This document shows, piece after piece, positions 1,910 through 20,060 of a stretch of 32,000 bases of DNA (position 1 is its first letter; each line of letters opens with the position of its first letter). This stretch comes from Nostoc sp. PCC 7120 = FACHB-418 (GTDB lineage: Bacteria; Cyanobacteriota; Cyanobacteriia; Cyanobacteriales; Nostocaceae): assembly GCF_000009705.1 (NCBI RefSeq), contig NC_003272.1, positions 4,200,001 to 4,232,000 of the forward strand, in the 5' to 3' direction. The notes under the pieces were generated by a model. It saw nothing but the letters and a program-made list of their open reading frames with translations. It had not been told where the DNA came from and ran no database searches. A program made the translations under genes and the position numbers.

Positions 1910-1951
1910 ATTGTCGGCAATCGCCCGACAAGCGACTGAAACAAATGATAA

Positions 1952-1980: not shown

Positions 1981-1999
1981 TGGGTTTTAGGAAAAGGGT

Positions 2000-2767: not shown

Positions 2768-3089
2768 TCTCTCCTAGAATCCTTTAGTCATTGTGATAAA
2801 TTTGTTGTATGAACAACCTATTTCCTAGTTTTCATTATCATTAGGTTTTCCATGAAAGATTTTACGCAAATTTCTGATCAGCAAATATTTTTGTGAAACC
2901 AATTAAGAAGTTTAACAAAATAGAATATCCTCCCCTAAATGCAAAGAGGAGGATATTTTATAGTAAGGATTCAGGTCTAAAGTTGAGGTATTAAAGAAGG
3001 GGTCTGCACAGCAGGCTTAACCGTTGCTTTAATAGCTTGAGCAAAAAAGTTAATAACAGAACGTCCTTGATAAACACCTTCTATAAAAA

Positions 3090-3116
3090 AGCCACCAAAT
3101 TAAAATCTTGGTGGCT
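3090..3116 (-). terminator. intrinsic terminator hairpin downstream of the hydrolase gene
   Basis: 9-bp stem AGCCACCAA / TTGGTGGCT flanked by an A-run (3085-3090) and a T-rich tract. On the minus strand the hairpin is followed by TTTTTTAT, 28 nt after the stop at 3144. Confidence 0.6.
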
Positions 3117-3143
3117 TTCTTTTATTATATTTTTTTTTAGACA

Positions 3144-4019
3144 TCATCTGATTATTCTTTTGAGAAGTTCATTTAAATCAATCTTACGTTCATCAAGAAT
3201 CCGATAAGCAATCGATTTCAAATACCCCACAAAAGAATCATCGAATTTTAGAAAACCAAATTCCTCTAGCAAAAATTCCTTGATAAATTGAACTAGTAAA
3301 CGGTGTTGTACAGCGTATTTATCCTTCGGTTTACTGATTGTAATGTGATCTGAACCTGGAACTTTGAACGCTCGACCAAAATATCTTGCACCAGAGAAAG
3401 GTTCAACAATCTGCTTCTTGAGAATTCCTTTTCCATATAGCGGCAAATCTTCAATTAGCTCTTTCCCTTTAATTCTTAAGTTCTTGTTGTTTATGAGATT
3501 GAGAAAATCCTTATCTAAATCATTGAGCCACACATTACTTTGAGAAAATCTCAGTGCGCTAGCTTGAGTATGACCCATAATACTTGATAAAAGTCCTAGC
3601 ATATTTGCATATTTAGAACCCAAAGATGGTGATGCTACTAAAAACAAACCAATCTTGTTCAGACCTCTTTCAACTAGCAGTGAATATTGGTTGACGAGAA
3701 ACCGCCTTGTTACAATCCCTCCCATGCTATGACAAACAAATATAACTGCTGCACTATTAATTAAACCATCCAGTAGGAAGTATTCTCTGAGAGAATCAAC
3801 AACATCACTTAAGCTATAAGAACCCGTATTCAAACCAGTACGATAGGAAAATATATAAATCCCAATCTCTGCCAATTCATCTTCAATTAGAAGTAATATG
3901 AACCAGTACAGTCCATTTTCATTTCTCCAACAATCATCACTAGAATTTAGTCCATGAATAAATATTATAACTACGCCTTTTTCTTTACTTGGCTTTCTTA
4001 GCCATTTTCCTTGAGTCAT
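3144..4019 (-). CDS. alpha/beta-hydrolase (lipase/esterase-like, GxSxG)
   Basis: Nucleophile elbow VCHSMGGIV and an oxyanion-region start VVIIFIHGLNSSDDCW. This is typical of DUF676/PGAP1-like serine hydrolases. Confidence 0.8.
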   Translation of the reverse strand: MTQGKWLRKPSKEKGVVIIFIHGLNSSDDCWRNENGLYWFILLLIEDELAEIGIYIFSYRTGLNTGSYSLSDVVDSLREYFLLDGLINSAAVIFVCHSMGGIVTRRFLVNQYSLLVERGLNKIGLFLVASPSLGSKYANMLGLLSSIMGHTQASALRFSQSNVWLNDLDKDFLNLINNKNLRIKGKELIEDLPLYGKGILKKQIVEPFSGARYFGRAFKVPGSDHITISKPKDKYAVQHRLLVQFIKEFLLEEFGFLKFDDSFVGYLKSIAYRILDERKIDLNELLKRIIR

Positions 4020-4204
4020 AAGTTTGCGACCTTTGCAGTATGAGCGATGAAAAATAGAACTTTCCCAATTAAGGAGAGAACAAAAATAAACATATTTGTG
4101 TGTGCAAAACGAAACCTTTGGTTTTGCTGAGACTTACAAAATTTTGGGGCAATTTATTAAATGCAGGAGATAAGTACCTCCTGCACGGGTTGATAAAGCT
4201 AAAA

Positions 4205-4504
4205 TTAGCCGATAGCTCTCCACAATGATGGAGCTGCCGTTGGATTCCAGTCAGGGGCAAAGCTCGTATGTGAAGTTATGCACTGAAATCGGCTACCTTG
4301 GAAAATTACTACATCTCCGCTCATGTATTCTACGTTCATCGCCCAGTGAGGGTGAGGCGTTGAAGATGACGGAAGAGTATCACTATTGGTTGTCTCATTG
4401 GGACGCTGAGTGAATGGAGATTTAGCTGCGGATTTAACTGCAACCTTAGCTAAAGTCTTAGCTAAAGCCTTAGCACCCACTTTTAAAAATATTGGCAAGC
4501 CCAT
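4205..4504 (-). CDS. small protein: cationic amphipathic N-terminus plus CBM5/12 (ChtBD3-like) carbohydrate-binding domain
   Basis: The C-terminus HWAMNVEYMSGDVVIFQGSRFQCITSHTSFAPDWNPTAAPSLWRAIG fits the W..Y..GD.V.y.G..y.c...W.P....LW pattern of CBM5/12. I chose the internal ATG at 4504 (MGLPIFLKVGAKALAKTLAKVAVKSAAK...). The track ORF runs up to 4606 with an implausible Cys/Trp/Phe-rich leader. Confidence 0.6.
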   Translation of the reverse strand: MGLPIFLKVGAKALAKTLAKVAVKSAAKSPFTQRPNETTNSDTLPSSSTPHPHWAMNVEYMSGDVVIFQGSRFQCITSHTSFAPDWNPTAAPSLWRAIG

Positions 4505-4677
4505 TTGTTGAGTCCTGTGTTTATTGTTGACAAAACGACTATAAAATTTGGGGTATACCCAAAAGCAAATGTGCCAAAATAAGCGGGAAAAACAGCTTAT
4601 AATCAAGATTTAACAAGTTTGGGGTGGTATTCTAAATTGGGACAGCCCCAAACTTTCTGCTTAATTTTTGCGATGTA

Positions 4678-5958
4678 ATGCCTAGAAGAACTCACGGTGA
4701 TCAAGTTAAAGAGCGGGTCAAGCGTCTGTTAGAGGCGTTACTTTGTGTTGTCGATGGGGAATTTGAGGACGGTATTTCTGGTATTAAGCACAATGATTGG
4801 AAGGAGGAAAGCAGCACTAACCCCAAGCTAATTGTCGAAACCACCCTGAGACATTTAGAGTACTTGACAGATAAAGACAAATACCCAGGTAAGCTAACAA
4901 ATCCACAAATCCGAGAAGCCCTTCACCTTCTTGATAAAAAGAGAAATGATTCTCTATTAAAAATTCTGGAAGACCACCGTACCACAAAAAGAGGTTCTGC
5001 TAATTGGCACTTTACGTTGAAGCTATGGTCAAAAGATAAAAAAATAAATTTGGAGAAGTTTGAACAAGAGTGGGAAAGCAAAAGACCGGAAAAATCAAAA
5101 AAACCAGAAGATTTTAAACCAGTATCGAACCCAGATCCAAGTTCACATATAAACAACTCCACTGAATTAGAAAAAAAAGAGAAAGCACGAAAATTCCTAC
5201 GCTCATTTGATTGTGCAATACAGGAGAGCTATTTAAAACCAAAGATTGTTAAAGATAAATGCGGATTTTTCCCTACTCAGGTAGATAAAAGCGTTGAATT
5301 GTGGTTTAGATGGCGCTTAACAAAATGTATGGGAGATTTTGATAAAATCAAAAAAATTCAGATTGATATTGACTATAGTATAGTAAAAAATTTTAAGTTT
5401 TTTTGGCAAAAAATTGGTGAATATGTAGACAAAAAAGGCGATTTTGACAGTGATGCGGCAATTAATGAATTAATTAATGAATTAATTCAGCTTTGTGAAA
5501 AACAGCCTGTAATGATTGTTATTAAAAATGCTAAACAATTATCTCGTAATAGGCAAAAAGAGATGTTTGAGTTCTGTGAGATATTACTAAAATCGTTTAA
5601 AGGAAATATTGATAAGCATAGATCATATTTGGTTATCTTCCTAATAGAACGAAAAAATACTGATCAAGATACGAGTCAAGAATACTCTACTCAAATTGAT
5701 ATTGATAATGACTTTCTTCAACAAGAAATGATTGAGATAGAATTCATAAAATTTTTACAACAAGACATAGAAAATTGGTTAGATGAGAATCAAAGTAATC
5801 TTAAAGAAGAAAATTTTGATGCAGACATAAAACCCGAAATGATAAATTATTTATTGAAACAGGAATCTGACATATTACTAGATGAAATTTGTAAGAATGT
5901 ATTTAAGTTAAATAATGGTATTGCAGATGTTGAAGACTATTGGAGGAAATTCGCATGA
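4678..5958 (+). CDS. hypothetical 426-aa protein, first gene of the MoxR/vWA/DGR-target operon
   Basis: Long ORF, visibly AT-rich and Lys/Asp/Glu/Ile-rich. No catalytic motif is recognisable by eye. Its TGA stop (5956-5958) overlaps the downstream ATG (5955) as ATGA, which suggests translational coupling. Confidence 0.7.
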   Translation: MPRRTHGDQVKERVKRLLEALLCVVDGEFEDGISGIKHNDWKEESSTNPKLIVETTLRHLEYLTDKDKYPGKLTNPQIREALHLLDKKRNDSLLKILEDHRTTKRGSANWHFTLKLWSKDKKINLEKFEQEWESKRPEKSKKPEDFKPVSNPDPSSHINNSTELEKKEKARKFLRSFDCAIQESYLKPKIVKDKCGFFPTQVDKSVELWFRWRLTKCMGDFDKIKKIQIDIDYSIVKNFKFFWQKIGEYVDKKGDFDSDAAINELINELIQLCEKQPVMIVIKNAKQLSRNRQKEMFEFCEILLKSFKGNIDKHRSYLVIFLIERKNTDQDTSQEYSTQIDIDNDFLQQEMIEIEFIKFLQQDIENWLDENQSNLKEENFDADIKPEMINYLLKQESDILLDEICKNVFKLNNGIADVEDYWRKFA

Positions 5959-6995
5959 TGAGTGACAATAAAAAACCAGATTATGAATATACAGCAGAAG
6001 AAAAGTACCAAACTGAAGATGGTACTGAAGACCCTTGGAAGCAAATTTATTGTCCTTACCCTTACCTACCTAGCGATGAATTAAAAGAAGCTGTTAATTT
6101 AGCGATCGCACTCGAACGACCATTACTATTGGAAGGAGAACCAGGTTGTGGTAAAACTCGGTTAGCTGGAGCGGTTGCCTATGAATTTACCAAAAAAAAC
6201 GCAGAATATCTGTCAACCCAGGAAAAATTCTGGGCTTATTATATCTGGAATATTAAATCTACAATCCGCGCTCGTGATGGGCTTTATAGATACGATGCTG
6301 TTGCTCGATTGCGGGATGCTCAGTTGATGGGAACAGATCCAGACAAATTGCAAGATTTTTTAGGCGGCGAAGAAACTGAAGAATTAAAGCAAAGGTTAAA
6401 GGATAAAAAAAATTATAGAGAATTTGGAGCATTAGGTAAAGCTTTACAAAAACATGATTATCGGCCGATTTTATTAATTGATGAAATCGATAAAGCAGAT
6501 AGTGATTTTGCAAATGATTTACTACTGGAGTTAGAAGAATTACGCTTTGAAATTCCTGAAACTGGAGAGTCATTCCCTACACCTGAAAACAAACCGATTA
6601 TTTTTATTACGAGTAATCGAGAAAAACCTTTACCAGAACCTTTTTTGCGTCGCTGTATTTACTTTTATGTTGAATTTCCTGATGATAAGTTACTCAGAAA
6701 TATAATAGATAAGCGATTTGGTACGCTCACAGGCAGGAACAAACAAAAAATAAAAGATAAAGCCATAGAGATTTTTTATAACATTCGCGATTTGTTGGAA
6801 AAGCATCCAGGAAGTAAGCCACCAGGAACTAGCGAATTTATAGATTTTTTTAACGCTATTTTACAAAGAAAGAATCCCTTGGATGACTTAGATAACTTAT
6901 TTAATAGAACGTCATTACTGGGCATACTTATTAAAACAAAGCCAGACCAATTTTTAGTATCAAATTACTTAAAAGAGGAAAATCAGTACAAGTAA
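5955..6995 (+). CDS. MoxR-like AAA+ ATPase (AAA_5 type)
   Basis: Walker A LLLEGEPGCGKTRLA, Walker B ILLIDEIDKAD, sensor-1-like IIFITSNRE, Arg-finger region PEPFLRRC. I chose the start at 5955 because GGAGGA (5942-5947) sits 7 nt upstream. The track ORF begins at 5940. Confidence 0.9.
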   Translation: MMSDNKKPDYEYTAEEKYQTEDGTEDPWKQIYCPYPYLPSDELKEAVNLAIALERPLLLEGEPGCGKTRLAGAVAYEFTKKNAEYLSTQEKFWAYYIWNIKSTIRARDGLYRYDAVARLRDAQLMGTDPDKLQDFLGGEETEELKQRLKDKKNYREFGALGKALQKHDYRPILLIDEIDKADSDFANDLLLELEELRFEIPETGESFPTPENKPIIFITSNREKPLPEPFLRRCIYFYVEFPDDKLLRNIIDKRFGTLTGRNKQKIKDKAIEIFYNIRDLLEKHPGSKPPGTSEFIDFFNAILQRKNPLDDLDNLFNRTSLLGILIKTKPDQFLVSNYLKEENQYK

Positions 6996-7009
6996 AATAA
7001 ATCCCCCTT

Positions 7010-8254
7010 GTGAAGCTTATTATTAATTGCTTTATGAATAATTCTGTAGATGCTTCAATTTTGTTCAATGATTCTTCACCGCAGTTATTAGCAACAGGAA
7101 TTACTCAAACTCTAGAAGAGTATGAATCTTTATTATTAGACTTATTTCAAGAATTGCGACAAGCTGGAATGGCTTTAACCCCGGAACAATATGAGTTATT
7201 ACAAATTGCAGTTGAAAAAGGGTATGGTTTAGCCGGATGGGAAGATTTAAAACGGTTGTGTCGGTTACTGTGGGTTAAACCCTGCGCTAATTATGATATT
7301 AATATTTTTAATCGCGTCTTTAATAGTTATCTCCAGCAGCATCGTGCCAAAACACTTATAAACCCTGAACCAGAAACGCTAGCAGAATCACCAGAAAAAA
7401 CTTCTAATTCTCCTGACAGCACACCTTCTGTTGTAGAACCATTATCAAATCTTCCCCAAATCCCCCCCAGGAATTTTGAAAAACCACTATCTCTGCAACC
7501 GGATAAAGTAGAAACTCCAAGCGCGATCAAGGGTTCATCAACCCCCCCAAAACTTAAATTTGAGCAGTCAAATTTTGTCCTCAATCCCCAGGATTTTCCC
7601 ATCAATTTACAAGATGTTCAAAGAATTTGGCGTTTACTAAAAAAACCAGTGCGGCTTGGCTGGGAAGATGAATTGGACATTGAAGCCACCGTTGAGCGAA
7701 TTGAACGGGAAGGTTTTTTAACAGATGTGGAGATGCGTCCCAGAATGACTCGACAAGCCGAATTGTTGTTGTTAATTGATGATAATTCGGCAATGATCCC
7801 ATTTTTTCTAGCATTTGAACCTTGGATGCAAGCAATTAAAGAAGCTCGAATCACTCCCGCTCGGATATATCGGTTTACCAGCTATCCCGACGAATATCTT
7901 TATGAGTGGGAACGTCCAACTCTTGCTCATCCTCTGATTAATATCTTGCCAAAACTGCATCGCCACCGCACAATCGCCCTAATTTTCAGCGATGCTGGAG
8001 CCGCAACAATTACCTACAACCAAGACCGAATTGACGGAATATCAAAGTTTTTAATTGCCTTATCTCCCTGTGTTCGTCAGTTTATTTGGCTGAATCCCTT
8101 ACCGCATCAACGATGGGAATATACCTCAGCTTGGGGAATTAATGCGACACTTAATGGAAAAATGTTAACCTATGGCCTTGCTAGCTTACAAATAGCAGCC
8201 AAAGAAAATCCACAAGGGGATACGATTAAAATATGGCAAATCAATCCCCATTAG
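7010..8254 (+). CDS. vWA-like domain protein, MoxR partner
   Basis: The C-terminal half has vWA-like strands ELLLLIDDNSAMIPF (degenerate DxSxS MIDAS position) and IALIFSDAGAA. A Pro/Ser-rich linker occupies the middle. The gene directly follows the MoxR gene. The start is uncertain: GTG at 7010 or ATG at 7034. Confidence 0.72.
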   Translation: MKLIINCFMNNSVDASILFNDSSPQLLATGITQTLEEYESLLLDLFQELRQAGMALTPEQYELLQIAVEKGYGLAGWEDLKRLCRLLWVKPCANYDINIFNRVFNSYLQQHRAKTLINPEPETLAESPEKTSNSPDSTPSVVEPLSNLPQIPPRNFEKPLSLQPDKVETPSAIKGSSTPPKLKFEQSNFVLNPQDFPINLQDVQRIWRLLKKPVRLGWEDELDIEATVERIEREGFLTDVEMRPRMTRQAELLLLIDDNSAMIPFFLAFEPWMQAIKEARITPARIYRFTSYPDEYLYEWERPTLAHPLINILPKLHRHRTIALIFSDAGAATITYNQDRIDGISKFLIALSPCVRQFIWLNPLPHQRWEYTSAWGINATLNGKMLTYGLASLQIAAKENPQGDTIKIWQINPH

Positions 8255-8280
8255 GAATAAATTCCCAGGAAAGGGAGAAA

Positions 8281-8820
8281 ATGGATGATTTGACAACTCG
8301 CCGCCTTCGGGTTGTTGAACAACGTTATGGAAAAAAGGCACTGGAATTAGCTTATCATGCAGCCTTACCCCTGACACTCACTTCAAGTTTGCTTTATTGT
8401 CTGCGAGAAACTTTTGTTCCCGATTGTCCTTGGTATGCAATAGCCGATGTGTTGCTATCAGGGTTATGTGAAACGATAGGCTATGACTTGTATGAAATGG
8501 AAGATAACACAAGATATGCCTTAATAGAGAGATTGCGAGAGGATCAAAGGTTTGGGGAACAGCGACTCCATGACTTGTCTAATTTTATGTCCCATTACAT
8601 TTTAAATCGCTTCAAGCAAGAGACTAATGAATATCGACGCGAGTGGATACCATTATCATACTTGATAGCAGATGGGGAAGGGGTAAATGCTATCAAGGAA
8701 CAATTGCGAAACTTGCTAGAAGCCTTACCAGAAGATGATGAAGAACGTATCAAATGGAAAGAGTTAGAAAAAAATACGAGGATATCTTCAAAGAGAAAGG
8801 CTTTGAGCCGTTGTTATTAA
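8281..8820 (+). CDS. helical module of unknown function, possibly the frameshifted N-terminal part of DGR target 1
   Basis: ATG at 8281 is preceded by AGGGAG (8272-8277). The ORF ends 45 nt after an A7 run (8768-8774). At that run a -1 shift joins it in frame to the 8754-9824 ORF. Confidence 0.55.
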   Translation: MDDLTTRRLRVVEQRYGKKALELAYHAALPLTLTSSLLYCLRETFVPDCPWYAIADVLLSGLCETIGYDLYEMEDNTRYALIERLREDQRFGEQRLHDLSNFMSHYILNRFKQETNEYRREWIPLSYLIADGEGVNAIKEQLRNLLEALPEDDEERIKWKELEKNTRISSKRKALSRCY

Positions 8821-9824
8821 AACCGTCACAAGATGAGCCTGACGAAAAAACTATCTTAGATGATGAGGAAAAGGCAATTGCACAAGCAATCGGAGTTGAG
8901 TTAAAACCTTGTCAGTATGATGTCGCAGTTATTAGTCCCAGTTTTAAGTTTGAAACCGTAACAGTAAATGCTCTCGGAAAAGTAATTAACACAGAGCAAA
9001 AACAAGCAATTTACTATGTAGAGTTCTTAGGGAAAACACCGGGAGAACCCGCAGAACTAGGAATCGAGATGGTAGCGATTCCGGGGGGAACTTTTAACAT
9101 GGGTTCGCCAAAAAATGAGCCAAACCGCAGCCACCATGAAAGTCCCCAGCATACCGTAACTGTGCAGCCTTTCTTTATGAGTAAGTATCCTATAACTCAG
9201 GCACAGTGGCGATTTGTAGCACAGTTGCCCCAAATAAATCGGGAAATAAGCTCAGAACCATCTCGTTTTAAAGGAGATACTTTACCAGTAGAACAAGTCT
9301 CTTGGTACAATGCTGTTGAATTTTGCCATCGCCTTTCTAAATATACAGGTAGACCCTACACTCTACCAACCGAAGCCGAATGGGAATATGCGTGTCGTGC
9401 TGGAACAACAACCCCATTCTATTTTGGAAAAACCATTACTGGTGACTTAGCCAATTATGATGCTACAAGCAACTATTTAAATGAACCTAAAGGACAATAC
9501 AAGGAGCGAACAAACCCAGTAGGACAATTTCCGCCTAACGCCTTTGGTTTATACGATATGCACGGAAATGTATGGGAATGGTGTCTAGACGATTGGCACA
9601 ATAACTATAAAGGTGCGCCAACAGATGGCAGCGCATGGCTTGACAATAATGATAACCTTTATCAAAAACAAGGAAGTGCTGTGCTGCGGGGCGGCTCCTG
9701 GGACGACCTTCCTGAAGGCTGCCGTTCCGCGTCCCGCCTCAGCCTCAATAGGGCGGTGCGCGACCTCATCCTCTACAGTTTTGGTTTTCGTGTTGTCTGC
9801 GCGTTCGGGAGGATTCTTCAGTAG
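8754..9824 (+). CDS. DGR target protein 1: FGE-sulfatase / C-type-lectin-fold domain with C-terminal VR1
   Basis: FGE-sulfatase family motifs are present: MVAIPGGTFNMGSP, VSWYNAVEFCHRLS, LPTEAEWEYACRAGTTTPF, GLYDMHGNVWEWCLDDW, LRGGSW. The last roughly 45 codons are the variable region, matching TR. Confidence 0.9.
   Translation: MERVRKKYEDIFKEKGFEPLLLKPSQDEPDEKTILDDEEKAIAQAIGVELKPCQYDVAVISPSFKFETVTVNALGKVINTEQKQAIYYVEFLGKTPGEPAELGIEMVAIPGGTFNMGSPKNEPNRSHHESPQHTVTVQPFFMSKYPITQAQWRFVAQLPQINREISSEPSRFKGDTLPVEQVSWYNAVEFCHRLSKYTGRPYTLPTEAEWEYACRAGTTTPFYFGKTITGDLANYDATSNYLNEPKGQYKERTNPVGQFPPNAFGLYDMHGNVWEWCLDDWHNNYKGAPTDGSAWLDNNDNLYQKQGSAVLRGGSWDDLPEGCRSASRLSLNRAVRDLILYSFGFRVVCAFGRILQ
9684..9811 (+). 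other. DGR variable region VR1 (128 bp)
   Basis: Colinear with TR 12414-12541. I counted 19 mismatches by hand and every one is at a TR adenine. The flanking blocks CTGCGGGGCGGCTCCTGG and TTGGTTTTCGTGTTGTCTGCGCGTTCGGGAG are identical. Confidence 0.93.
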
Positions 9825-9922
9825 CCCTTTATACTTTTGTCCTTTTACCCTTTGTACTTGTTCTTTTTTACTTTTCTGTCGCCTTATGGCGACTCGAATT
9901 TTTCACCAAAATATGAAGATTA

Positions 9923-10762
9923 ATGGCACAAACTATAATTGAACATCATCGACGGACAGGGCTGCATTTTGTTGAAGACTTGGGGAATGGAGTTCAACTA
10001 GAGATGATGCTGATTAAAGGTGATATTTTTACGATGGGCGCACCAAAAACAGAGGAAGCCAGCAGAGATAGTGAACGACCTCAACATGAAGTGACTATTC
10101 AAACTTTTTTTATGGGTAAGTATCAAGTCACTCAAGAGCAGTGGAAAGCAGTAGCAGTACTACCGCAGGTCAACAGAAAACTCAACCCAGACCCATCTAA
10201 CTTTAAAGGTGCAAATCGACCTGTTGAGCAAGTATCTTGGTATGATGCGGTGGAGTTTTGCGATCGCCTGACTGCCCATACAAAAAGACCCTACCGCCTA
10301 CCAACTGAAGCAGAATGGGAGTATGCGTGTAGAGCCGGAACAACAACCCCGTTTCATTTTGGCGAAACAATTACATCAGAGTTAGCTAACTATGATGCTA
10401 CTAAAACTTATGGTGCTGGGGTAAAAGGAACGTATCGACAAGAAACGACAGACGTAGGGAGCTTTGGCGTAGCGAATCATTTTGGGCTATACGATATGCA
10501 CGGAAACGTATGGGAATGGTGTCTAGACGATTGGCATAGTAGCTATGAAGGTGCGCCGACAGATGGTAGTGCGTGGTTTGATAATAATGATAACCTTTCT
10601 CAAAAGCAAGGACAAGCCGTGCTGCGGGGCGGCTCCTGGAGCTCCTCTCCTGTAGTCTGCCGTTCCGCGTCCCGCGGCAACAACGATAGGGCGGGGCGCG
10701 TCTACCGCTACTACGCTGTTGGTTTTCGTGTTGTCTGCGCGTTCGGGAGGACTTTTCAGTAG
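9923..10762 (+). CDS. DGR target protein 2: stand-alone FGE-sulfatase / CLec-fold domain with C-terminal VR2
   Basis: Paralogue of target 1 with the same motifs (VSWYDAVEFCDRLT, LPTEAEWEYACRAGTTTPF, GLYDMHGNVWEWCLDDWH, LRGGSW). Only about 30 residues precede the FGE domain. Confidence 0.9.
   Translation: MAQTIIEHHRRTGLHFVEDLGNGVQLEMMLIKGDIFTMGAPKTEEASRDSERPQHEVTIQTFFMGKYQVTQEQWKAVAVLPQVNRKLNPDPSNFKGANRPVEQVSWYDAVEFCDRLTAHTKRPYRLPTEAEWEYACRAGTTTPFHFGETITSELANYDATKTYGAGVKGTYRQETTDVGSFGVANHFGLYDMHGNVWEWCLDDWHSSYEGAPTDGSAWFDNNDNLSQKQGQAVLRGGSWSSSPVVCRSASRGNNDRAGRVYRYYAVGFRVVCAFGRTFQ
10622..10749 (+). other. DGR variable region VR2 (128 bp)
   Basis: Colinear with TR. I counted 21 mismatches by hand: 20 at TR adenines and one at a TR thymine (TR 12499 T, VR2 10707 G). 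Confidence 0.93.
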
Positions 10763-10971
10763 CCCTTTATACTTTAGCTCTTTTCCACTTTGTACTTGTT
10801 CTTTTTTACTTTTTCTTAGCGTAACGGAGTGGAGCGTTGAAAATTTTTTTCAAATCAATCCAGGATAGAAACTAAATACATAAAAAATGAAGCCGCGAGT
10901 ATAAATAGATTAAGACTATTGACCCTGAGCGCAGCCGAACTGTTGATAAAAATATTAAGATTGATTAAAAA

Positions 10972-11316
10972 ATGAAAGAATTATCGGTCATCCAAAAGAC
11001 CTATGATTGTATTAAATGGTATGTGCCAATTATTGAGAGATTACCCAAAATTCATAAATTTACTTTGGGAGATAGAATTATCAATCAACTGTATGATTTA
11101 TTAGAGGGATTAATTAAAGCCAAATATGCTAAAAATAAACTACCTCAACTAGAATCTCTCAATAGCCAACTAGATATTTTACGCTATCAAACAAGAATGC
11201 TATTTGATTTTGATAAGATGTCAATTGAGCGATACGAATATGTTATCAAGCTAATAGATGAAATTGGTACGGAATTAGGGGGTTGGATTAAAAATCAAAG
11301 AAACAGAGAAAAATGA
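10972..11316 (+). CDS. avd: Avd-like accessory variability determinant (four-helix-bundle / 23S rRNA-IVS protein family)
   Basis: 114-aa helical protein directly upstream of the RT. Its N-terminus, KTYDCIKWYVPIIERLPKIHKFTLGDRIINQLYDLLEGLIKA, is typical of the four-helix-bundle family that includes DGR Avd. Confidence 0.85.
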   Translation: MKELSVIQKTYDCIKWYVPIIERLPKIHKFTLGDRIINQLYDLLEGLIKAKYAKNKLPQLESLNSQLDILRYQTRMLFDFDKMSIERYEYVIKLIDEIGTELGGWIKNQRNREK

Positions 11317-11333
11317 TATTTAAATAAAAGATA

Positions 11334-12392
11334 ATGAAACGTTACGGTAATCTTTACCAGGAAATCATTAATTTTGAAAATATACTTATAGCATCGCGTC
11401 AAGCACAAAAAAGCAAGCGGTTTCGGGACAATGTTTTAGATTTTAATTATCATCTAGAAACTGAATTAATTAAATTACAGAAACACTTAACAGATAAAAC
11501 CTATCAGCCAGGAGCTTACCGAACATTTCGTTTAACCAACCCCAAGAGTCGCTTAATTTCTGCCGCACCCTATCGAGATAGAGTTGTTCACCATGCACTA
11601 TGCAACATCATTGTGCCAATTTTCGAGAGAGCTTTTGTAGCTGATTCTTATGCTAACAGAATTGGTTTTGGAACCCATCGAGCGTTGAAAAAATTTACTC
11701 ATTCTGCTCGTAACAGCCCCTATGTACTTCAATGTGATATCAGAAAATATTTTCCGAGTATTGACCACATAATTTTAAAAGAATTAATCCGTCGTAAAAT
11801 CAAATGCCCCGATACATTGTGGTTAATTGACACTATCATCGATAATAGCAACGAACAAGAAACAGTGATTGATTATTTTGCTGGAGATGATTTACTCTCT
11901 CCTATAACTCGCAGGAAAGGTTTACCTATTGGAAATTTGACCAGCCAATTTTTTGCGAATATTTATTTAAATGGCTTTGATAAAATTATCAAAGAAGAGC
12001 TAAAAATATCCAAATATGTCCGTTATGTTGATGACTTTGCCTTATTTAGTGATGACCGAGAATTATTAGCCGATGCTAGACTAGCAATAGAAGCATATTT
12101 AGCTGAATTAAGGCTGAAAATCCACCCAATTAAAAGCCAATTATTTGAAACGAAAATTGGTGCAACTTTTCTGGGCTTCAGGATATTTTCTCACAAAATT
12201 CGGGTCAGAAATAGTAATTTACATCAAGCAAGGCGCAGACTTAAGCGATTGAAAACAGACTATGCTCAAGGTAAACTTGAACTTAATCAAGTAACTCAAT
12301 CTATGAGAAGTTGGATTGCTCACCTAGAACATGGTGATACTTGGCGATTACGCAAACAGATATTTACTTCCCTCCATTTTAGGAGAAAGTAG
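11334..12392 (+). CDS. DGR-type reverse transcriptase
   Basis: RT motifs are present: [16 protein letters not shown], the catalytic motif [12 protein letters not shown] (YxDD), and the DGR-diagnostic [17 protein letters not shown] (the I/LGxxxSQ motif). TR follows 21 nt after the stop. Confidence 0.93.
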
Positions 12393-12413
12393 AGAAGGGG
12401 TAGGCGAACCCGA

Positions 12414-12541
12414 CTGCGGGGCGGCTCCTGGAACAACAATCCTGAAAACTGCCGTTCCGCGTCCCGCAACAACAACAATAGGGCGGAGCGCGACAACATC
12501 AACAACAATATTGGTTTTCGTGTTGTCTGCGCGTTCGGGAG
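12414..12541 (+). other. DGR template repeat (TR), 128 bp
   Basis: Contains 32 adenines by my count, arranged as AAC/AAT codon runs. In the VR frame it reads [42 protein letters not shown]. It matches both VRs except at adenines. Confidence 0.93.
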
Positions 12542-12845
12542 TACTCTTCACCGCGAGAGTCGGCAGGTGGGAATCTGTCGAGAGTGCAACTGAAGAGTCC
12601 AGCCTACACCTGTGATGTCGGTGACGATATCCAAATATAAAACCGGGTTGCGTAGCTTGGTAGGCGAAAGCCGAACAGTTGCTCAACCCTACAAACAAAA
12701 TTCAAAATTCTCTGTCTTGACCATTTCAGGATTTTGGGCAGATCCAGCCAGAACCTAGCTCTGCATCGGATAGGGGTTATGACGAAATATAGCCGATGAG
12801 TATCGCAAAATAGCAGAAGAACAACAAAATATAGCTTGGGACACA

Positions 12846-13049
12846 GTGGAGCAATCAAACACTGGAGAGCCAATTACCAAGCATTACCATGTAATTCTGC
12901 ACTATGAGCGCATTGCAGAGGAAGAATCAAAGTTTGAGGCAATGCACAATACCATTATGGGAAATACGGTGGTGGAGAATGCCAATATCACCGTGATTGA
13001 GATTGATCCAGATATACCAATAGAGCCTTTAACGCGATCAAGGGATTGA
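12846..13049 (+). CDS. hypothetical protein (67 aa)
   Basis: GTG-initiated ORF from the track with no motifs. Coding status is uncertain. Confidence 0.25.
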   Translation: MEQSNTGEPITKHYHVILHYERIAEEESKFEAMHNTIMGNTVVENANITVIEIDPDIPIEPLTRSRD

Positions 13050-13298
13050 GTGGGCTAGTGAAATGAGATTTTCAGGACTTTAGTGCTATTGCGATCGCCA
13101 AAAGCTTAAGCTTCTTTACGAGACGCTGCGCGAACGCTTATCGCCTGCGGTGGAGCTTAGACCATCGCCTACTTGATTTCAGCTTACCGTTTTGTCTGCA
13201 CATAAATCTTTGTGATTTACAGTAGAGAATTTTCTCAATCACAGCACAACCATTGAAGGCACGCAGATCAAACACCCGAAACTGAAATCCTGAATCTG

Positions 13299-13886
13299 CT
13301 ATTTAACTAGCTGGACTGTTTTATAACCATACGAACCCATAGAATCCTTATTCTGCCGTTGCTGGTGGAGGGTTGCCAAATGCTCTAATGCTTGGTTCAG
13401 ACCTCTTGAAATGTGCCGCTCATATCGAGCTAATTTATCTGTATCTTGCGGCAAAGCCAGGGATTTTTTCTCCTCTTCCCTAATCTGTGCCTGCAAACTT
13501 TTCAGTTCTGCACCCCCACTTCTATCGCTCCCCAAATCAATGAGTGATTGCAAGGCATCGGGAAATTTAAAATTCATTTCAGCCCTTAAAATAGAGAGAT
13601 TGGCGATCGCCGCCTCCGCCTGCCAAAGCCGACTTAACTTTAGCCAACCCATTGCCACTTGCTGCACCAGCAGTTTTTCCGTAGCAGTTGTTGGTTGATA
13701 TTCGTCAATTAAGGACTGTACAAAGCCTGGAAATACCTCTAAATCTTCACCCATTACTAACGGTGGATTAACCGACAGTAACCCATGTCGTGTAGAGTTT
13801 CCAGAAGCAATAGATTTGCCCTTTTGTGTAACTGGGCCACGAGATTTTTTTCCATTGGCTCGACAAATTTCAGGATTGGCAACCAT
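13299..13886 (-). CDS. hypothetical protein (195 aa) at the distal end of the integrative element
   Basis: Clean ORF with a basic N-terminus (NGKKSRGPVTQKGKSIASGNSTRHGLL) followed by a helical region. I have seen this architecture near integrases, but its function is unknown. Confidence 0.6.
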   Translation of the reverse strand: MVANPEICRANGKKSRGPVTQKGKSIASGNSTRHGLLSVNPPLVMGEDLEVFPGFVQSLIDEYQPTTATEKLLVQQVAMGWLKLSRLWQAEAAIANLSILRAEMNFKFPDALQSLIDLGSDRSGGAELKSLQAQIREEEKKSLALPQDTDKLARYERHISRGLNQALEHLATLHQQRQNKDSMGSYGYKTVQLVK

Positions 13887-14034
13887 AAGCTTCTCTTACA
13901 AAATTAATAGTATATTCATCGCTTTTATTTCTTCACAAGTGGAAGAACTAATACAATTTGTGTATGTATAAAGTCGCAAGTCAAGTGGCTTGTATTAGTA
14001 ATTCCCTGTACTAAGACTTTGTGAGTGATCGCGG

Positions 14035-17000
14035 TCATGCTGGATTAACATCACTAATACTCACTGAACATGAGCGATCGCCCAAGTCAATAAATAATTT
14101 TTCACCCATCATTGTAAGCACTTCAGCTTCTGAACCTTGGTAGCTAACTTTATCCCCTTGTTTAAATTTGTAGACCTTTTGAGAAATTACCTCAAAGCTA
14201 TCGCTGATAGGGATTTCATCTAATTGTGGCTTAGAAATTGTAGATAAGTGTACGTAATTTGTAGACTCTTGAGAAACAAGCTCAAAGCTATTTCTGGCAA
14301 TACTTTCGGAATAACAATCTTGATTTGTAGACGTTGTAGACGATTCTCCATGTAAATTCTCATCCAAGTTCACAACTGGAGTATCTGTTTGTGGCTCAAC
14401 CAATGTTTTGACCTTCACATCATGAGAAAAATCGTCTACATCGTCTACAAAATCAGACTGTTTTTTCTGTAATTCAGTTTTCACGATAGTTTCAGGAGAG
14501 AAACAATTATCTACAAATCGTCTACAATCATCTACAGAGTTTTGACTATTTTCTTCTGAACTTCTTGTTTTTACAGTGGTTGCGGCTTTTTTATCAGTAG
14601 CCAACAAATCGTCTACAACTTTATTGGTTCTAAACTCTAATCGTTTACCAGTTCCTCTTAATTCTCCGTAACCCATATCTACTGCCTTAGTCATCAGTTC
14701 TCTAACCTCGGCTGATTTCATCCGGCCTTTAGCGTTTTGCCTGAGGCTGACATCTCTTGCAGTGAGCCATCCTTCCTCACCCAGTAATTGGCGTTTTATA
14801 GAAAGCTTAATCATGGCTAAAATTGCAGACTGTGTTGATTCCCCAGCTATTTGTAGATGCACTGTCTGAATCTGTGTTAATAGATGCTCAACGATGCCCG
14901 CAGCCTGTTGTACTCGAATTAAGGGAATGATTGCTGGTGGAGTTTCACAAAAAGAATCTGATAGTTCATGGATGAGATGGAGATTTAAGGATACTCGTCC
15001 CAACAACCCTGTACACTTTTTCAAGAACTCTTTCAACGCACCGTTTGGAAGCCGTCCGGCTTCAAGTTGCCATTTATTGTCCACACTACGGAAATATTCG
15101 TAAACCTCATCTGTAATATGGTACGTCTGAGGCGCACAGTTAAGTGTTGCCCTGTACAGTCCTTGAAGCAGTCCAGTTAAGTCAATAACCGGTGCGCTCT
15201 CATCTGGTAGTAGACGTATATCTTCATTCAGTATTGAAAAAGTAAATCTGGGTAGTAATCCATCACTTGCGCCAATCTGAAAATATTGATGAAGTATGGA
15301 GGGTTGTAATCCACCAAGCCAAGCTGTGTTAGTTGCCCCAACACAAATGTTCTTTGACACTTTAGCTTCACTGAATCCATCACCATCATACAAACTGAGA
15401 AATTCTTGACGGTCATTACCTTGACCACGCTTGTATTGATTGAATCCACCAAACAAACCTGATAATTCATCAACAACATTCAGTATTGAGTATTCTGGTG
15501 CTTTTGCAATGTAATCTTTCAATCCTTCCAATGTGGAGCCAGTTAAATACATTTTGTTTACTGGCTTTGGTGCTTCTGGTTGTGGAGTGGATTTATCAGA
15601 TTTTTCCCATGCAGCTAAATCTCTGTTGTATTCTTCTGATTCTTCTTTAAATCGTTTAACTTCTTCCTCTCTTAGAGCATTTAGGGGCTTTTTAACCAAA
15701 GCTCTAAAGATGATTGACTTACCAGTTCCAGACTCACCAACTAAAGCATGGTTAATAGCTGGATTTTGATAAAATCCATTGTGCCTATTTCCGATCAGAA
15801 CCTGTGTACCAAGCATATGTGATGAGCTAACTACGCTGATTAAACACATCATTAATGAGGCCTCTGATAGCGATTGGTTGCGCCCAAATAACATTAAGGC
15901 TGTCGCTATTGTTCTTGGTAAGAACTGCCTAACATCTAAATTAATCTTGGAACATCTTAATACTGTTTGAATGTCTTCTCTTATCAGTTCATTATCTTCA
16001 GACTTACGATGTTCTGCTTCTACATTGCCTAGAAAATTGTCTAATTTTACAGGATAATACTTTTTGTTTGCCTCAGTTTTAAAACGACTTATTTCTGATT
16101 TTGAAACCTGAGAATCTAGCAAATTGATGTACTCAGCTTTAATATCGTCGTATGGAATGGTGGCTGTAGTGTGAATAAGAACTTTTGATGGTTGGGCGAT
16201 CGCCTGTTGGTGTTTCTCTGGGATGATATGACCTTTTGATCTAGCGATGTCTAAAGTGACTCTAAAAATTTCTTTGGTGTCACAGTTTTTATGGCAATGA
16301 AACTGTCCTGTATGCTCATTGATGTGTAGGCTATCGCTACTATTTCCCCCATGAACAGGACACTTACAAGTTATCCAGTTCTTACGCCCTCCAGGTTTAT
16401 AACCTTCTAGATATTGAGACAGCTTCCGCATATCAGCCCAATCATCAGCAACAAGTGGATTGCCTTGTAATTTTGCCTCATGGTATGGGATTAGTTCTCT
16501 CAAACTTTTGTAGGTGTATCGTTTTCCAGTATTAAGGATGATTTGAGTTTGTCCATTAACGACGTTCTCTGACGCGAAATGCCAACACCCGGCCAGTCTC
16601 ATCACCCTTGATGGATTTTTGAGCGAGCGATCTGCATCTGCGTACTCTAGTAAGTCAGCTTGCAGACTTTTCCACTGCTGAGGATCGATGAACTGCTCAA
16701 AAGTCCAATAACTATGTATAGACCTACCGCCAGTGTCTATCTGCAAACTTGGTTCTGGCAATTGGAGCGATCGCCATAATTCTCTCTGTACTTCTTTATC
16801 TAAATCGTCATGTTCAATAAAAAGTGCGCGACAGTTAGTGATATCTTGATCTCTATGTCCAGGGCCATTCACAACCAAGTAAACCCCTCTACCCTCTGAT
16901 TGAAATTGCCTAACAATTTCGACTAGTTCATCTAAATTATTAGTTTCTGCCTTTCTCCCCTTATCATTGGTTTTTCGTGGATCGTTGCTAGGATAAAAAG

Positions 17001-20050: not shown

Positions 20051-20060
20051 TTAAGATAAG

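What the first reader, a model, noticed from the sequence alone, without database searches (positions are those of the whole stretch)
4678..12598. DGR-hypermutated lectin-fold proteins embedded in a MoxR-AAA+/vWA operon: candidate programmable-recognition conflict or signalling system
Seen in the sequence:
- Nine same-strand genes with tight junctions. There is an ATGA stop/start overlap at 5955-5958, a 14-nt gap from 6995 to 7010, a 26-nt gap from 8254 to 8281, and an ORF overlap at 8754-8820.
- The order is unknown 426-aa protein, MoxR-type AAA+ (Walker A GEPGCGKT, Walker B LLIDEIDKAD), vWA-like protein, helical module, FGE/CLec target with VR1, second target with VR2, Avd, RT, TR.

Established knowledge:
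- MoxR ATPases work with vWA partners.
- Comparative genomics has grouped vWA-MoxR modules with adaptor and effector proteins as putative conflict systems, and has noted FGE-fold domains as DGR targets in cyanobacteria.
- As far as I know, no function has been shown experimentally for this combination.

Inference: the hypervariable CLec surface is a ligand sensor (phage, peptide or glycan) whose output runs through the MoxR/vWA machine. I could see no obvious toxin or effector domain. That makes the 426-aa protein and the divergently oriented hydrolase at 3144-4019 the candidates.
Basis: partly seen in the sequence, partly recalled or inferred. Interest (0 to 1): 0.85.

Follow-up and report, generated by a model that had tools for sequence, protein, structure and literature searches.

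The report
Known DGR-linked MoxR–vWA conflict system
This is the chromosomal diversity-generating retroelement of Nostoc/Anabaena sp. PCC 7120, joined to an iSTAND-type MoxR–vWA "ternary conflict system"; this kind of system is already described in the literature, and in this strain a one-base deletion breaks its main hypervariable receptor gene.

Summary

The window is Nostoc sp. PCC 7120 (alr3490–alr3497).

- **System type.** The 426-aa protein is EAD4 fused to a divergent inactive STAND domain. The next two genes fold like NorQ/CbbQ (MoxR class) and NorD (vWA). The "helical module" is the vWA-linker domain. This makes it an iSTAND-type MoxR–vWA ternary system with a DGR-diversified FGS domain.
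- **Already published.** Kaur et al. 2020 and 2021 and Doré et al. 2024 describe this class. Co-expression was reported for the N. punctiforme orthologue in 2025.
- **Eight genes, not nine.** ORFs 8233–8820 and 8754–9824 are one gene split by a one-base deletion in a poly-A tract (A7 here). The gene is intact (A8) in the near-identical strain NIES-23 and in all relatives.
- **Cassette and flanks.** The same eight-gene order recurs in another Nostoc with unrelated flanks. The flanking hydrolase is not conserved with it.
- **Function.** It remains experimentally untested.

Novelty is low. The practical value is that the PCC 7120 reference strain carries a broken sensor.

The parts
4678..5958 (+). 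Third component of the ternary system (alr3490): an N-terminal EAD4 adaptor (aa 7-133) followed by a divergent inactive STAND (iSTAND) domain.
   Evidence: Pfam EAD4 scores 2.3e-36. The C-terminal part aligns by hhalign to Pfam-iSTAND-positive upstream proteins of related MoxR loci with probability 96.5%, E 7e-10, over 231 columns. 20 of 33 HMMER relatives carry PF19995 iSTAND. The Walker A and B positions read WFRWRLTK and IVIKNAK when aligned to an EAD4-NACHT protein.
5955..6995 (+). MoxR-class AAA+ ATPase (alr3491). Walker A is GEPGCGKT and Walker B is LLIDEIDKAD.
   Evidence: AAA_5 scores 4e-11. The AF2 model has pLDDT 88.7 and pTM 0.85. The best Foldseek hits are NorQ (E 7.5e-11, TMt 0.71-0.77) and CbbQ, followed by McrB and dynein. 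Sources name the homologues 'MoxR family ATPase'.
7010..8254 (+). Stand-alone CoxE-type vWA protein (alr3492; the likely start is the ATG at 7034). It has an N-terminal four-helix domain, a Pro-rich disordered linker and a vWA domain.
   Evidence: It is 100% identical to alr3492. VWA_CoxE is weak for this protein (7e-4) but precomputed for most homologues. NF041121 model positions 27-168 match. The AF2 model shows four helices, a disordered stretch and an alpha/beta domain. The best fold hits are the NorD vWA domain in the NorQD complex and VWF A1 (probability 0.95-0.99, E about 1e-3).
8233..8820 (+). 5' fragment of DGR target 1: the vWA-L (vWA-linker) helical domain (alr3493; start at ATG 8233 or 8281). 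After position 8775 the frame is out of register.
   Evidence: It matches the C-terminal part (positions 379-468 of 475) of the same NCBIfam model, NF041121, whose N-terminal part matches the vWA protein. It is fused to FGS in the 510-600-aa homologues.
8769..8775 (+). A7 homopolymer, the site of the 1-nt deletion that splits target 1.
   Evidence: NIES-23 has A8 here and encodes an intact 514/530-aa protein. This is one of only 2 differences in 13,545 bp.
8754..9824 (+). 3' fragment of DGR target 1 (alr3494): a beta-rich extension followed by the FGE-sulfatase/C-type-lectin domain that carries VR1.
   Evidence: FGE-sulfatase scores 2e-56. PDB sequence hits include PvdO, FGE and T. denticola TvpA.
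9684..9820 (+). VR1. The last ~40 nt form the invariant IMH block.
   Evidence: It is 85% identical to TR, and 19 of 21 mismatches fall on TR adenines.
9923..10762 (+). DGR target 2 (alr3495): a short protein with only the FGS/CLec domain.
   Evidence: FGE-sulfatase scores 2e-51.
10622..10758 (+). VR2.
   Evidence: 20 of 23 mismatches fall on TR adenines.
10972..11316 (+). Avd accessory protein.
   Evidence: NF033474 DivGenRetAVD scores 6e-42, 142 bits against a cut-off of 80. bAvd scores 3e-21.
11334..12392 (+). DGR reverse transcriptase (alr3497). It carries a derived T100A change relative to NIES-23 and other relatives.
   Evidence: RVT_1 scores 5e-22. PADLOC RT scores 6e-50. The motif [13 protein letters not shown] is visible in the translation. 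Residue 100 is compared.
12414..12550 (+). Template repeat (TR), rich in AAC/AAT codons, with IMH* at its 3' end. The DGR RNA spacer follows.

Best explanation
**What it is**
The region is an eight-gene cassette of Nostoc/Anabaena sp. PCC 7120 (alr3490-alr3497). It joins an iSTAND-type MoxR–vWA ternary conflict system to its own diversity-generating retroelement.

**Shown**
- The RT, Avd and TR form a DGR. Its two targets carry adenine-specific variation at the C-terminal surface of an FGS/C-type-lectin domain.
- The larger target is the FGS domain fused to vWA-L. In other systems this helical linker is the covalent C-terminal extension of the vWA protein.
- The vWA protein and the AAA+ protein resemble the NorD/NorQ and CbbO/CbbQ remodeller pairs.
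- The first gene encodes an EAD4 adaptor on a catalytically dead STAND domain.

**Inferred mechanism**
1. The hypermutated lectin surface binds an invader-derived ligand (a phage protein or glycan).
2. The vWA-L domain docks the receptor onto the vWA protein.
3. The MoxR hexamer uses ATP to remodel or threshold this complex.
4. The signal passes to EAD4–iSTAND. Its EAD4 domain recruits EAD4-tagged partners encoded elsewhere by homotypic interaction. In other cyanobacteria these partners are mostly NB-ARC/NACHT STAND NTPases. The likely outcome is death or arrest of the infected cell, which protects the filament.

**State in this strain**
In the sequenced PCC 7120 lineage the long receptor is split by an A8-to-A7 deletion. 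The RT carries a derived T100A change. The system is therefore probably impaired here.

**How sure I am**
- Classification: about 0.9.
- Sensor-to-output direction: about 0.5.
- The overall confidence given (0.75) weights the classification more heavily than the inferred direction of signalling.
For: **DGR**
- establish the DGR parts and the adenine-specific TR-to-VR pattern.

**Identity of the locus**
- The vWA protein is 100% identical to alr3492.

**EAD4–iSTAND**
-.

**MoxR class**
- AF2 plus Foldseek give NorQ and CbbQ as best hits, E 7.5e-11, TMt up to 0.77.

**vWA**
- Homologues carry PF05762. The fold matches the NorD vWA domain and VWF A1.

**vWA-L**
- NF041121 spans the vWA ORF (model positions 27-168) and the helical ORF (379-468).
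- Fully fused vWA–linker–FGS relatives P0088 and P0096 cover 93-94% of the concatenated query.
- Kaur et al. 2021 state that in a minority of iSTAND systems a separate gene encodes vWA-L with its effector (PMC8195603).

**Synteny**
- The identical eight-gene order occurs in an uncultured Nostoc contig with unrelated flanks, and its own TR/VR pair shows A-specific changes.
- MoxR–vWA–vWA-L occurs in about 15 loci. FGS follows in L002, L003, L004, L006 and L015. Avd/RT is adjacent in L001 and L004.

**Frameshift**
-.

**Literature**
- PMC7159879, PMC10907252 and PMC12691664 for co-expression of Npun_F4885/4887/4888/4890.
Against: - No experiment shows defence or any other phenotype for this or any MoxR–vWA ternary system. 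PADLOC 2023 has no model for its non-RT parts.
- The window protein itself does not reach Pfam iSTAND, so the assignment is indirect, through homologues and profile-profile comparison. A placement in the related 'iSTAND2' family could not be excluded because no model was available.
- The vWA fold match is weak in E-value (1e-3), and the MIDAS motif looks degenerate (DDNSAM).
- No second EAD4 gene or other effector lies in the window, so the output is unidentified.
- VR1 and VR2 are identical in all sampled PCC 7120-like assemblies and in NIES-23. There is therefore no sign of current diversification.
- Kaur et al. propose the opposite direction of signalling, with iSTAND as sensor and FGS as effector.
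Confidence: 0.75

Rival explanations
1. Same system, opposite wiring (the Kaur et al. model). The inactive STAND protein senses the invader, perhaps its nucleic acid. MoxR gives ATP-dependent thresholding. The vWA-L–FGS protein is the effector arm, and its hypervariable lectin surface directly binds and neutralises invader molecules.
For: This is proposed in PMC7159879 and PMC8195603. The iSTAND position carries variable N-terminal signalling domains (trypsin, caspase, TIR, EADs) in relatives, as expected for a signalling or sensing hub. The FGS domain sits where other systems carry enzymatic effectors.
Against: In every characterised DGR the hypervariable surface is a ligand-recognition surface, not a toxin (established knowledge: Mtd, TvpA; TvpA match). 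A non-enzymatic binder is an odd sole effector. EAD4 is classed among the adaptors that recruit effectors, which places the output on the iSTAND side.
Confidence: 0.25
2. The cassette is a decaying relic in PCC 7120. It has a frameshifted main target, a mutated RT and frozen VRs, so it does nothing in this strain.
For: The only two differences from NIES-23 in 13.5 kb both hit the DGR cassette: A8 to A7 in target 1, and RT T100A at a position that is T or S in relatives. VR sequences are identical across all cluster members. The split allele is seen on 81 contigs. A relative (L001) has lost its FGS targets altogether.
Against: All other ORFs are intact. Target 2 is intact. An internal ATG at 8754 could still give an FGS-only protein. 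T100A is conservative. A single-base homopolymer change is readily reversible. This reading concerns activity in one strain, not what the system is.
Confidence: 0.35
3. It is a regulatory or signal-transduction tuning device rather than an immune system. The diversified lectin domains adjust recognition of endogenous or environmental ligands (Vallota-Eastman et al. 2020).
For: PMC7517822 argues that cyanobacterial DGR targets are mostly fused to signalling domains and lists VWA-CoxE among them. No phage link has been shown.
Against: The partner domains (EAD4, iSTAND, and trypsin/caspase/TIR in relatives) are hallmarks of conflict systems. The cassette sits in unrelated contexts in different genomes, next to an integrase here, which is typical of mobile defence islands.
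Confidence: 0.12
4. It is a VMAP-type ternary system, the commonest DGR-linked class in cyanobacteria according to Kaur et al. 2020.
For: The gene order (third component, MoxR, vWA) and the DGR/FGS association fit.
Against: There is no VMAP-C hit even at E<=10. The third component is homologous to iSTAND proteins. The MoxR N-terminus lacks the WxhapG and PsWRxa motifs (sequence). The vWA is CoxE-type with a four-helix N-domain, as described for iSTAND systems.
Confidence: 0.03
5. The DGR and an unrelated MoxR/vWA operon are juxtaposed by chance.
For: A 98-nt gap with a terminator-like hairpin (9878-9893) and a 209-nt gap (10763-10971) separate parts of the cassette.
Against: The vWA-L domain is physically fused to the VR-bearing FGS domain in all relatives. 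Synteny recurs across genera. Terminator-like sites are not more frequent than in shuffled sequence (9 found against 8.3 expected).
Confidence: 0.02

Closest known systems
iSTAND-type MoxR–vWA ternary conflict systems with an FGS domain (Kaur, Burroughs, Iyer & Aravind 2020, eLife 9:e52696; 2021, eLife 10:e70394)
   Same: The gene order is iSTAND-component, MoxR, vWA. An N-terminal EAD sits on iSTAND. The vWA is CoxE-like. vWA-L is followed by FGS, and a DGR is associated. The split arrangement, with vWA-L plus effector on a separate gene, is explicitly described for a minority of iSTAND systems.
   Different: The iSTAND domain here is too divergent for the Pfam model. In this strain the vWA-L–FGS gene is frameshifted. 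There is no adjacent second EAD4-effector gene.
Nostoc punctiforme PCC 73102 DGR locus Npun_F4885–F4892 (mBio 2025, PMC12691664; PLoS One 2013, PMC3610870)
   Same: It is the orthologous cyanobacterial cassette: third component, MoxR (F4887), vWA (F4888), FGS targets (F4889/F4890), RT (F4892). Co-expression of these genes has been reported.
   Different: The first gene there carries a CHAT/caspase-like domain instead of EAD4, so the effector is built in rather than recruited.
Thiohalocapsa sp. PB-PSB1 DGR 4/5/7 VMAP-ternary loci (Doré et al. 2024, PNAS)
   Same: A DGR-diversified CLec domain on a vWA-linked protein sits next to a MoxR ATPase. It is proposed to act as an antigen sensor.
   Different: The third component there is VMAP with a trypsin-like peptidase. 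The vWA is fused to the target. The host is a gammaproteobacterium, and diversification was observed in nature.
NorQ/NorD and CbbQ/CbbO MoxR–vWA remodeller pairs
   Same: They are the best structural matches of both the AAA+ and the vWA proteins. An ATP-driven hexamer acts through a vWA adaptor.
   Different: Those pairs mature or activate metabolic enzymes (NO reductase, Rubisco). They have no iSTAND, EAD or DGR partner. The MIDAS motif here looks degenerate.
Bordetella phage BPP-1 DGR (Mtd) and Treponema denticola TvpA
   Same: The machinery is RT, Avd and TR. Mutagenesis is adenine-specific and acts on the C-terminal face of a C-type-lectin/FGE fold. TvpA is a direct sequence match.
   Different: Those targets are a phage tail-fibre receptor-binding protein and a surface lipoprotein. 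This target is cytoplasmic-looking and plugged into an NTPase signalling module.

Membership tests
Diversity-generating retroelement (DGR) | A TR/VR pair whose differences are confined to template adenines | tested here: met
   19 of 21 (VR1) and 20 of 23 (VR2) mismatches fall on TR adenines. The rest lie mostly in the 3' IMH end.
Diversity-generating retroelement (DGR) | A DGR-type reverse transcriptase adjacent to the TR | tested here: met
   RVT_1 scores 5e-22. The LPIGNLTSQ motif, which I recall as typical of DGR RTs, is seen in the translation. The TR starts 22 nt after the RT stop codon.
Diversity-generating retroelement (DGR) | An Avd accessory protein | tested here: met
   NF033474 scores 142 bits against a cut-off of 80.
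Diversity-generating retroelement (DGR) | A VR at the C-terminus of a C-type-lectin/FGE-fold target | tested here: met
   The FGE-sulfatase domains end at the VRs. TvpA is a sequence match.
Diversity-generating retroelement (DGR) | Ongoing mutagenic retrohoming | tested here: inconclusive
   The VRs are identical in NIES-23 and in all PCC 7120-like assemblies. The orthologous cassette in L082 has different VRs with the A-specific pattern.
iSTAND-type MoxR–vWA ternary system | Conserved gene order: third component, then MoxR, then vWA | tested here: met
iSTAND-type MoxR–vWA ternary system | A third component containing an inactive STAND NTPase domain | tested here: met
   There is no direct Pfam hit. 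hhalign to iSTAND-positive proteins gives probability 96.5%, E 7e-10. 20 of 33 relatives carry PF19995. The Walker A and B positions are degenerate. iSTAND2 was not separately testable.
iSTAND-type MoxR–vWA ternary system | An N-terminal EAD, peptidase or TIR on the third component | tested here: met
   EAD4 scores 2.3e-36. Relatives carry trypsin, caspase, TIR, EAD7, EAD8 or EAD9.
iSTAND-type MoxR–vWA ternary system | A MoxR-clade AAA+ without the VMAP-type N-terminal motifs | tested here: met
   Foldseek gives NorQ and CbbQ as top hits. No WxhapG or PsWRxa motif is present in residues 1-45.
iSTAND-type MoxR–vWA ternary system | A CoxE-like vWA with a four-helix N-domain, followed by vWA-L and a variable effector | tested here: met
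   PF05762 is present in homologues. The AF2 model shows four helices. NF041121 is split over the two ORFs. vWA-L–FGS is fused in relatives.
iSTAND-type MoxR–vWA ternary system | A second copy of the same EAD on an effector protein in the same genome | not testable with these tools
   None is in the window or on the plasmids searched. The PCC 7120 chromosome could not be searched.
iSTAND-type MoxR–vWA ternary system | A role in biological conflict (anti-phage or cell suicide) | not testable with these tools
   This is only a comparative-genomic inference in the literature.
VMAP-type MoxR–vWA ternary system | A VMAP-C domain in the first gene | tested here: not met
   There is no Pfam hit at E<=10 for residues 134-426. 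The region is homologous to iSTAND instead.
VMAP-type MoxR–vWA ternary system | A MoxR N-terminal extension with WxhapG and PsWRxa motifs | tested here: not met
   The N-terminus reads ...TEDGTEDPWKQIYCPYPYLPSDE..., with no match to either motif (motifs taken).

The most novel reading that the evidence does not exclude
The EAD4 adaptor couples the hypermutated lectin receptor / MoxR–vWA module to EAD4-tagged NB-ARC/NACHT (NLR-like) proteins encoded elsewhere. A DGR-diversified "adaptive" receptor would then feed an NLR-type death machine, a two-tier sensor/helper network in a bacterium. The lineage-specific A8 tract in the receptor gene could act as a reversible on/off switch that limits autoimmunity. 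My evidence shows only two things. Outside this system, EAD4 is overwhelmingly fused to NB-ARC/NACHT STAND NTPases in cyanobacteria. A7 and A8 alleles coexist among near-identical strains.
Probability: 0.12. Interest if true: 0.7.

Novelty: already known. Interest (0 to 1): 0.3.

Why it matters
If the published hypothesis is right, these cassettes are the only known cellular analogue outside vertebrates of receptors diversified by targeted hypermutation and used for immunity. PCC 7120 is the most tractable multicellular cyanobacterium in which to test that.

The practical point from this check is a warning. The PCC 7120 reference lineage carries a frameshifted main receptor and a variant RT, so negative results in that strain would be uninformative. 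The near-identical NIES-23, or a repaired A8 allele, is the strain to use.

The analysis also re-files the locus as iSTAND-type rather than VMAP-type. It identifies the "unknown" first gene as an adaptor, so the effector must be sought elsewhere in the genome.

Tried and rejected
1. **VMAP classification.** Rejected. There is no VMAP-C hit, the MoxR N-terminal motifs are absent, and iSTAND homology was found instead.
2. **Flanking genes as effectors.** Rejected for the flanking alpha/beta-hydrolase (3144-4019) and the CBM5/12 and LysM genes. tblastn found none of them in any related locus except NIES-23. PADLOC gave only a weak DUF626 hit.
3. **A second EAD4 in the window.** None found. None was found on PCC 7120 plasmids in PLSDB.
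4. **Sequence search of the PDB.** The vWA family profile gave no hits. The AAA+ gave only generic AAA hits such as spastin and Vps4. Structure prediction plus Foldseek was needed.
5. **Terminator and promoter scan of 4000-13400.** Counts equalled the shuffle expectation, so the scan is not informative about co-transcription.
6. **Integrative-island boundaries.** I searched for an att repeat of the tRNA-Gly 3' end and found none in the window (one search used a guessed sequence and is void).
7. **Programmed frameshifting or a conserved contingency tract at 8769-8775.** Not supported. The A-run is lineage-specific, since L082 has GAAGAAAAATAT.
8. **VR variants among 90%-identity cluster members.** I looked for these as evidence of activity. 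I found only chimeric contigs that look like assembly mis-joins.
9. **Kaur 2020 supplementary file as held.** It lists PCC 7120 only as a multicellular organism, with no accession for this locus.

Full report
**1. Observation**

- Gene 1 stops at TGA 5956-5958 and overlaps the ATG at 5955.
- The AAA+ gene stops at 6993-6995 and a GTG follows at 7010. Homologues and the NIES-23 annotation point to the ATG at 7034 as the real vWA start.
- The vWA gene stops at 8254, and an ATG at 8281 sits behind a GGGAGAA ribosome-binding sequence.
- ORFs 8233-8820 and 8754-9824 overlap.

Profile searches confirm the family assignments:
- AAA_5 at 4e-11
- two FGE-sulfatase domains at 2e-56 and 2e-51
- Avd (NF033474, 142 bits against a cut-off of 80)
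- an RVT_1 reverse transcriptase

A 137-nt template repeat (12414-12550) matches VR1 (9684-9820) and VR2 (10622-10758).
- 19 of 21 and 20 of 23 mismatches fall on template adenines, which make up only 34 of the 137 bases.
- Most remaining changes sit at the extreme 3' end, where IMH differs from IMH*.

This is a bona fide DGR and not a chance repeat.

**2. Identity of the locus**

The vWA protein is 100% identical to alr3492 of Nostoc sp. PCC 7120. The other proteins are found exactly under PCC 7120 accessions.

The DGR of this strain has been cited before: Alr3497 and Alr3495 in PMC3610870, and "all3497" in PMC7517822.

**3. The first gene**

Residues 7-133 are Effector-associated domain 4 (2.3e-36). 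The remaining ~290 residues hit no Pfam model even at E<=10. Four results identify them.
- A BLASTP alignment to an EAD4-NACHT protein runs on past EAD4. It places WFRWRLTK opposite the Walker A GMGGIGKT and IVIKNAK opposite the Walker B VILDEAE.
- The genes immediately upstream of the MoxR homologue in related loci carry Pfam iSTAND (PF19995, 1e-13 to 1e-29). Their N-termini vary: trypsin, EAD4, caspase, EAD8, EAD9.
- A profile of the window protein and its two close homologues aligns to those proteins with 96.5% probability, E 7e-10, over 231 columns.
- An exhaustive HMMER search with the C-terminal part found 37 relatives. I scanned 32 of them together with the window protein. Of those 33 sequences, 20 carry iSTAND and 11 carry EAD4.

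The protein is therefore EAD4 fused to a divergent inactive STAND domain. It is an adaptor or scaffold, not a toxin.

**4. The AAA+ and vWA genes**

Sequence comparison with the PDB gave only generic AAA hits for the AAA+ and nothing for the vWA. Structure prediction resolved both.
- The AAA+ model (pLDDT 88.7, pTM 0.85) matches best NorQ (E 7.5e-11, TM up to 0.77 on the target) and CbbQ, both MoxR-class. McrB and dynein follow.
- The vWA model (pLDDT 78.6) has a four-helix N-domain, a disordered Pro-rich linker and an alpha/beta domain.
- Its best matches are the NorD vWA domain in the NorQD complex and VWF A1. Probabilities are 0.95-0.99 but E is only about 1e-3.
- Most homologues carry PF05762 VWA_CoxE.
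- The MIDAS position reads DDNSAM, against DD[S/N]xAM in the family, so metal-dependent binding is uncertain.

**5. The "helical module" and target 1 are one gene**

NCBIfam NF041121 (475 positions) matches the vWA ORF at positions 27-168 and the helical ORF at 379-468. The helical ORF is therefore the C-terminal extension of canonical vWA components, the "vWA-L" linker of Kaur et al. 2021.
- In relatives the vWA protein is usually a separate ~375-410-aa protein. The helical domain is fused to the FGS domain in a 510-600-aa protein.
- Two more distant relatives fuse all three parts (P0088 at 936 aa and P0096 at 863 aa).

Alignment shows where the frames change. The window's helical ORF follows the homologues up to ...KWKELEK, and the FGS ORF follows them from KYEDIFKEKGFEPLLLK. 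The switch lies in the run GAAAAAAAT (8769-8775).
- My conceptual repair, adding one A, reproduces exactly a 530-aa protein deposited for Trichormus variabilis (WP_191002495) and the 514-aa BAY69120 of strain NIES-23.
- The NIES-23 chromosome segment (L081) differs from window 2281-15824 by only two changes in 13,545 bp.
- The first change is A8 against A7 at this site.
- The second is G against A at window 11631, which makes RT residue 100 Ala here. It is Thr in NIES-23 and two other Nostoc, and Ser in a Merismopediaceae relative.
- The split allele is on 81 contigs from several assemblies, so it is real in the PCC 7120 lineage and not a single sequencing error.
- The A-tract is not conserved, since L082 has GAAGAAAAATAT. 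I therefore read it as a recent loss-of-function mutation, with a small chance of being a reversible switch.

**6. Is the linkage conserved?**

Yes.
- An uncultured Nostoc contig (L082) has the identical eight-gene order: EAD4-iSTAND 430 aa, AAA+ 354, vWA 401, vWA-L-FGS 531, FGS 286, Avd 114, RT 352, then TR. Its flanks are unrelated to the window's, and its VR1 differs from its TR at adenines in 12 of 15 mismatches.
- Among 80 genome loci retrieved with the AAA+ protein, about 15 have MoxR–vWA–vWA-L. These come from cyanobacteria, Chloroflexi and a Bacteroidota MAG.
- In five of them (L002, L003, L004, L006, L015) FGS follows the linker. In two (L001, L004) Avd/RT is adjacent.
- None of the window's flanking genes, including the hydrolase at 3144-4019, recurs next to any of them.

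The conserved functional unit is therefore the eight-gene cassette.

**7. Comparison with what is known**

The architecture matches the iSTAND class of MoxR–vWA ternary conflict systems.
- The third component is an inactive STAND with an N-terminal EAD, peptidase or TIR.
- The MoxR lacks the VMAP-type extensions.
- The vWA is CoxE-like.
- FGS is the commonest effector domain, found in 22% of systems (PMC7159879).

Further points from the literature:
- The split arrangement, with vWA-L plus effector on a separate gene, is described for a minority of iSTAND systems (PMC8195603).
- DGR association of ternary-system FGS domains in cyanobacteria is described in the same papers.
- Doré et al. 2024 propose that the diversified CLec is an antigen sensor signalling through MoxR.
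- For the N. punctiforme orthologue, co-expression of the CHAT protein, MoxR, vWA and a target was reported in 2025.
- The VMAP alternative fails two defining features.
- PADLOC 2023 has no models for the non-RT components, and I found no experimental validation.

**8. Mechanism**

Shown:
- the DGR parts and their adenine-specific imprint
- the fusion of the hypervariable lectin domain to the vWA docking linker
- a NorQ/NorD-like AAA+/vWA pair
- an EAD4–dead-STAND scaffold

Inferred:
1. The lectin surface recognises an invader ligand.
2. vWA-L docks it on the vWA protein.
3. The MoxR hexamer remodels or thresholds the complex with ATP.
4. EAD4 recruits EAD4-tagged partners by homotypic interaction.

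In other cyanobacteria EAD4 is mostly N-terminal to NB-ARC/NACHT STAND NTPases, so an NLR-like partner is the likeliest output. None is in the window, and the genome could not be searched. Kaur et al. propose the opposite direction of signalling. I rate the sensor-first model at about 0.5 and the reverse at about 0.25.

In PCC 7120 itself the system is probably impaired. The long target is frameshifted, the RT carries the variant residue, and the VRs are identical in all sampled assemblies.

**9. Verdict**

The interpretation coincides with published comparative-genomic hypotheses, so it is not novel.

The useful additions are:
- the correct subtype (iSTAND, split vWA / vWA-L-FGS)
- the identity of the 426-aa protein
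- the exclusion of the hydrolase
- the finding that the reference strain carries a broken receptor that is intact in NIES-23

Noticed in passing
window 8769-8775 (L081 6481-6488): The homopolymer is A7 in PCC 7120 and A8 in NIES-23. The 1-nt deletion splits the vWA-L–FGS target into two ORFs. The split allele is on 81 contigs, and the intact allele is in NIES-23 and one T. variabilis assembly. The tract is lineage-specific (A5 in L082).
   Followed up: yes
window 11631 (RT codon 100): This is the only other difference from NIES-23 in 13.5 kb. The RT has Ala here where NIES-23, L082 and L001 have Thr and L004 has Ser. Its functional effect is unknown.
   Followed up: partly
proteins P0234, P0238, P0235 (cluster members of window 8754-9824 and 9923-10762): Some Logan and JGI contigs join VR1 or VR2 to the sequence downstream of the TR (C-terminus ...[21 protein letters not shown]), or join the VR1 body to the VR2 end. 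These are probably k-mer assembly mis-joins across the 31-nt identical VR/TR block. Recombination or cDNA intermediates are not excluded. No VR amino-acid variants were seen.
   Followed up: partly
window 14035-20131, minus strand: A tRNA-Gly(tcc) gene (20060-20131), a tyrosine integrase with an Arm DNA-binding domain (18695-19882), a 244-aa ORF and a 1025-aa DUF3987 protein (14035-17112) lie just downstream of the cassette. They look like a remnant of an integrative element. No att-like repeat of the tRNA 3' end was found in the window.
   Followed up: partly
window 21617-21697, minus strand: There is an Rfam match to PsrR1 (photosynthesis regulatory RNA 1) at 69 bits against a gathering score of 42, next to a GGDEF diguanylate cyclase gene (20669-21592).
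   Followed up: no
L001 (Nostoc linckia FACHB-104) 1955-7810: This related cassette has trypsin–iSTAND, MoxR, vWA and a 215-aa vWA-L ORF, followed directly by Avd, RT and TR. There is no FGS target or VR in the locus. It is either an orphan DGR or its targets lie elsewhere.
   Followed up: partly
window 9878-9893 (+): A GC-rich hairpin (GTCGCC-TTAT-GGCGAC) followed by a T-run lies 54 nt after the target 1 stop codon. About 60 nt downstream of VR1 and VR2 are conserved between the two targets. This could be a terminator or a DGR target-recognition element.
   Followed up: no
window 1526-4606: The genes upstream of the cassette are an HNH endonuclease ORF (1526-1909, +), a LysM protein (2000-2767, -), a DUF676/PGAP1-like alpha/beta hydrolase (3144-4019, -) and a CBM5/12 protein (4205-4606, -). 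None is syntenic with the cassette in other genomes.
   Followed up: partly
window 12331-12615 (+) and 12348-12698 (-): These ORFs of 94 and 116 aa overlap the TR. The first is annotated as a gene in NIES-23. They are most likely spurious, because the region is the non-coding DGR RNA.
   Followed up: no
L005 (Anabaena azotica SJ-1 plasmid punname3): A related iSTAND–MoxR–vWA system with large non-FGS effector proteins (918 and 907 aa) sits on a 41.6-kb plasmid. This shows that such systems can be plasmid-borne.
   Followed up: no
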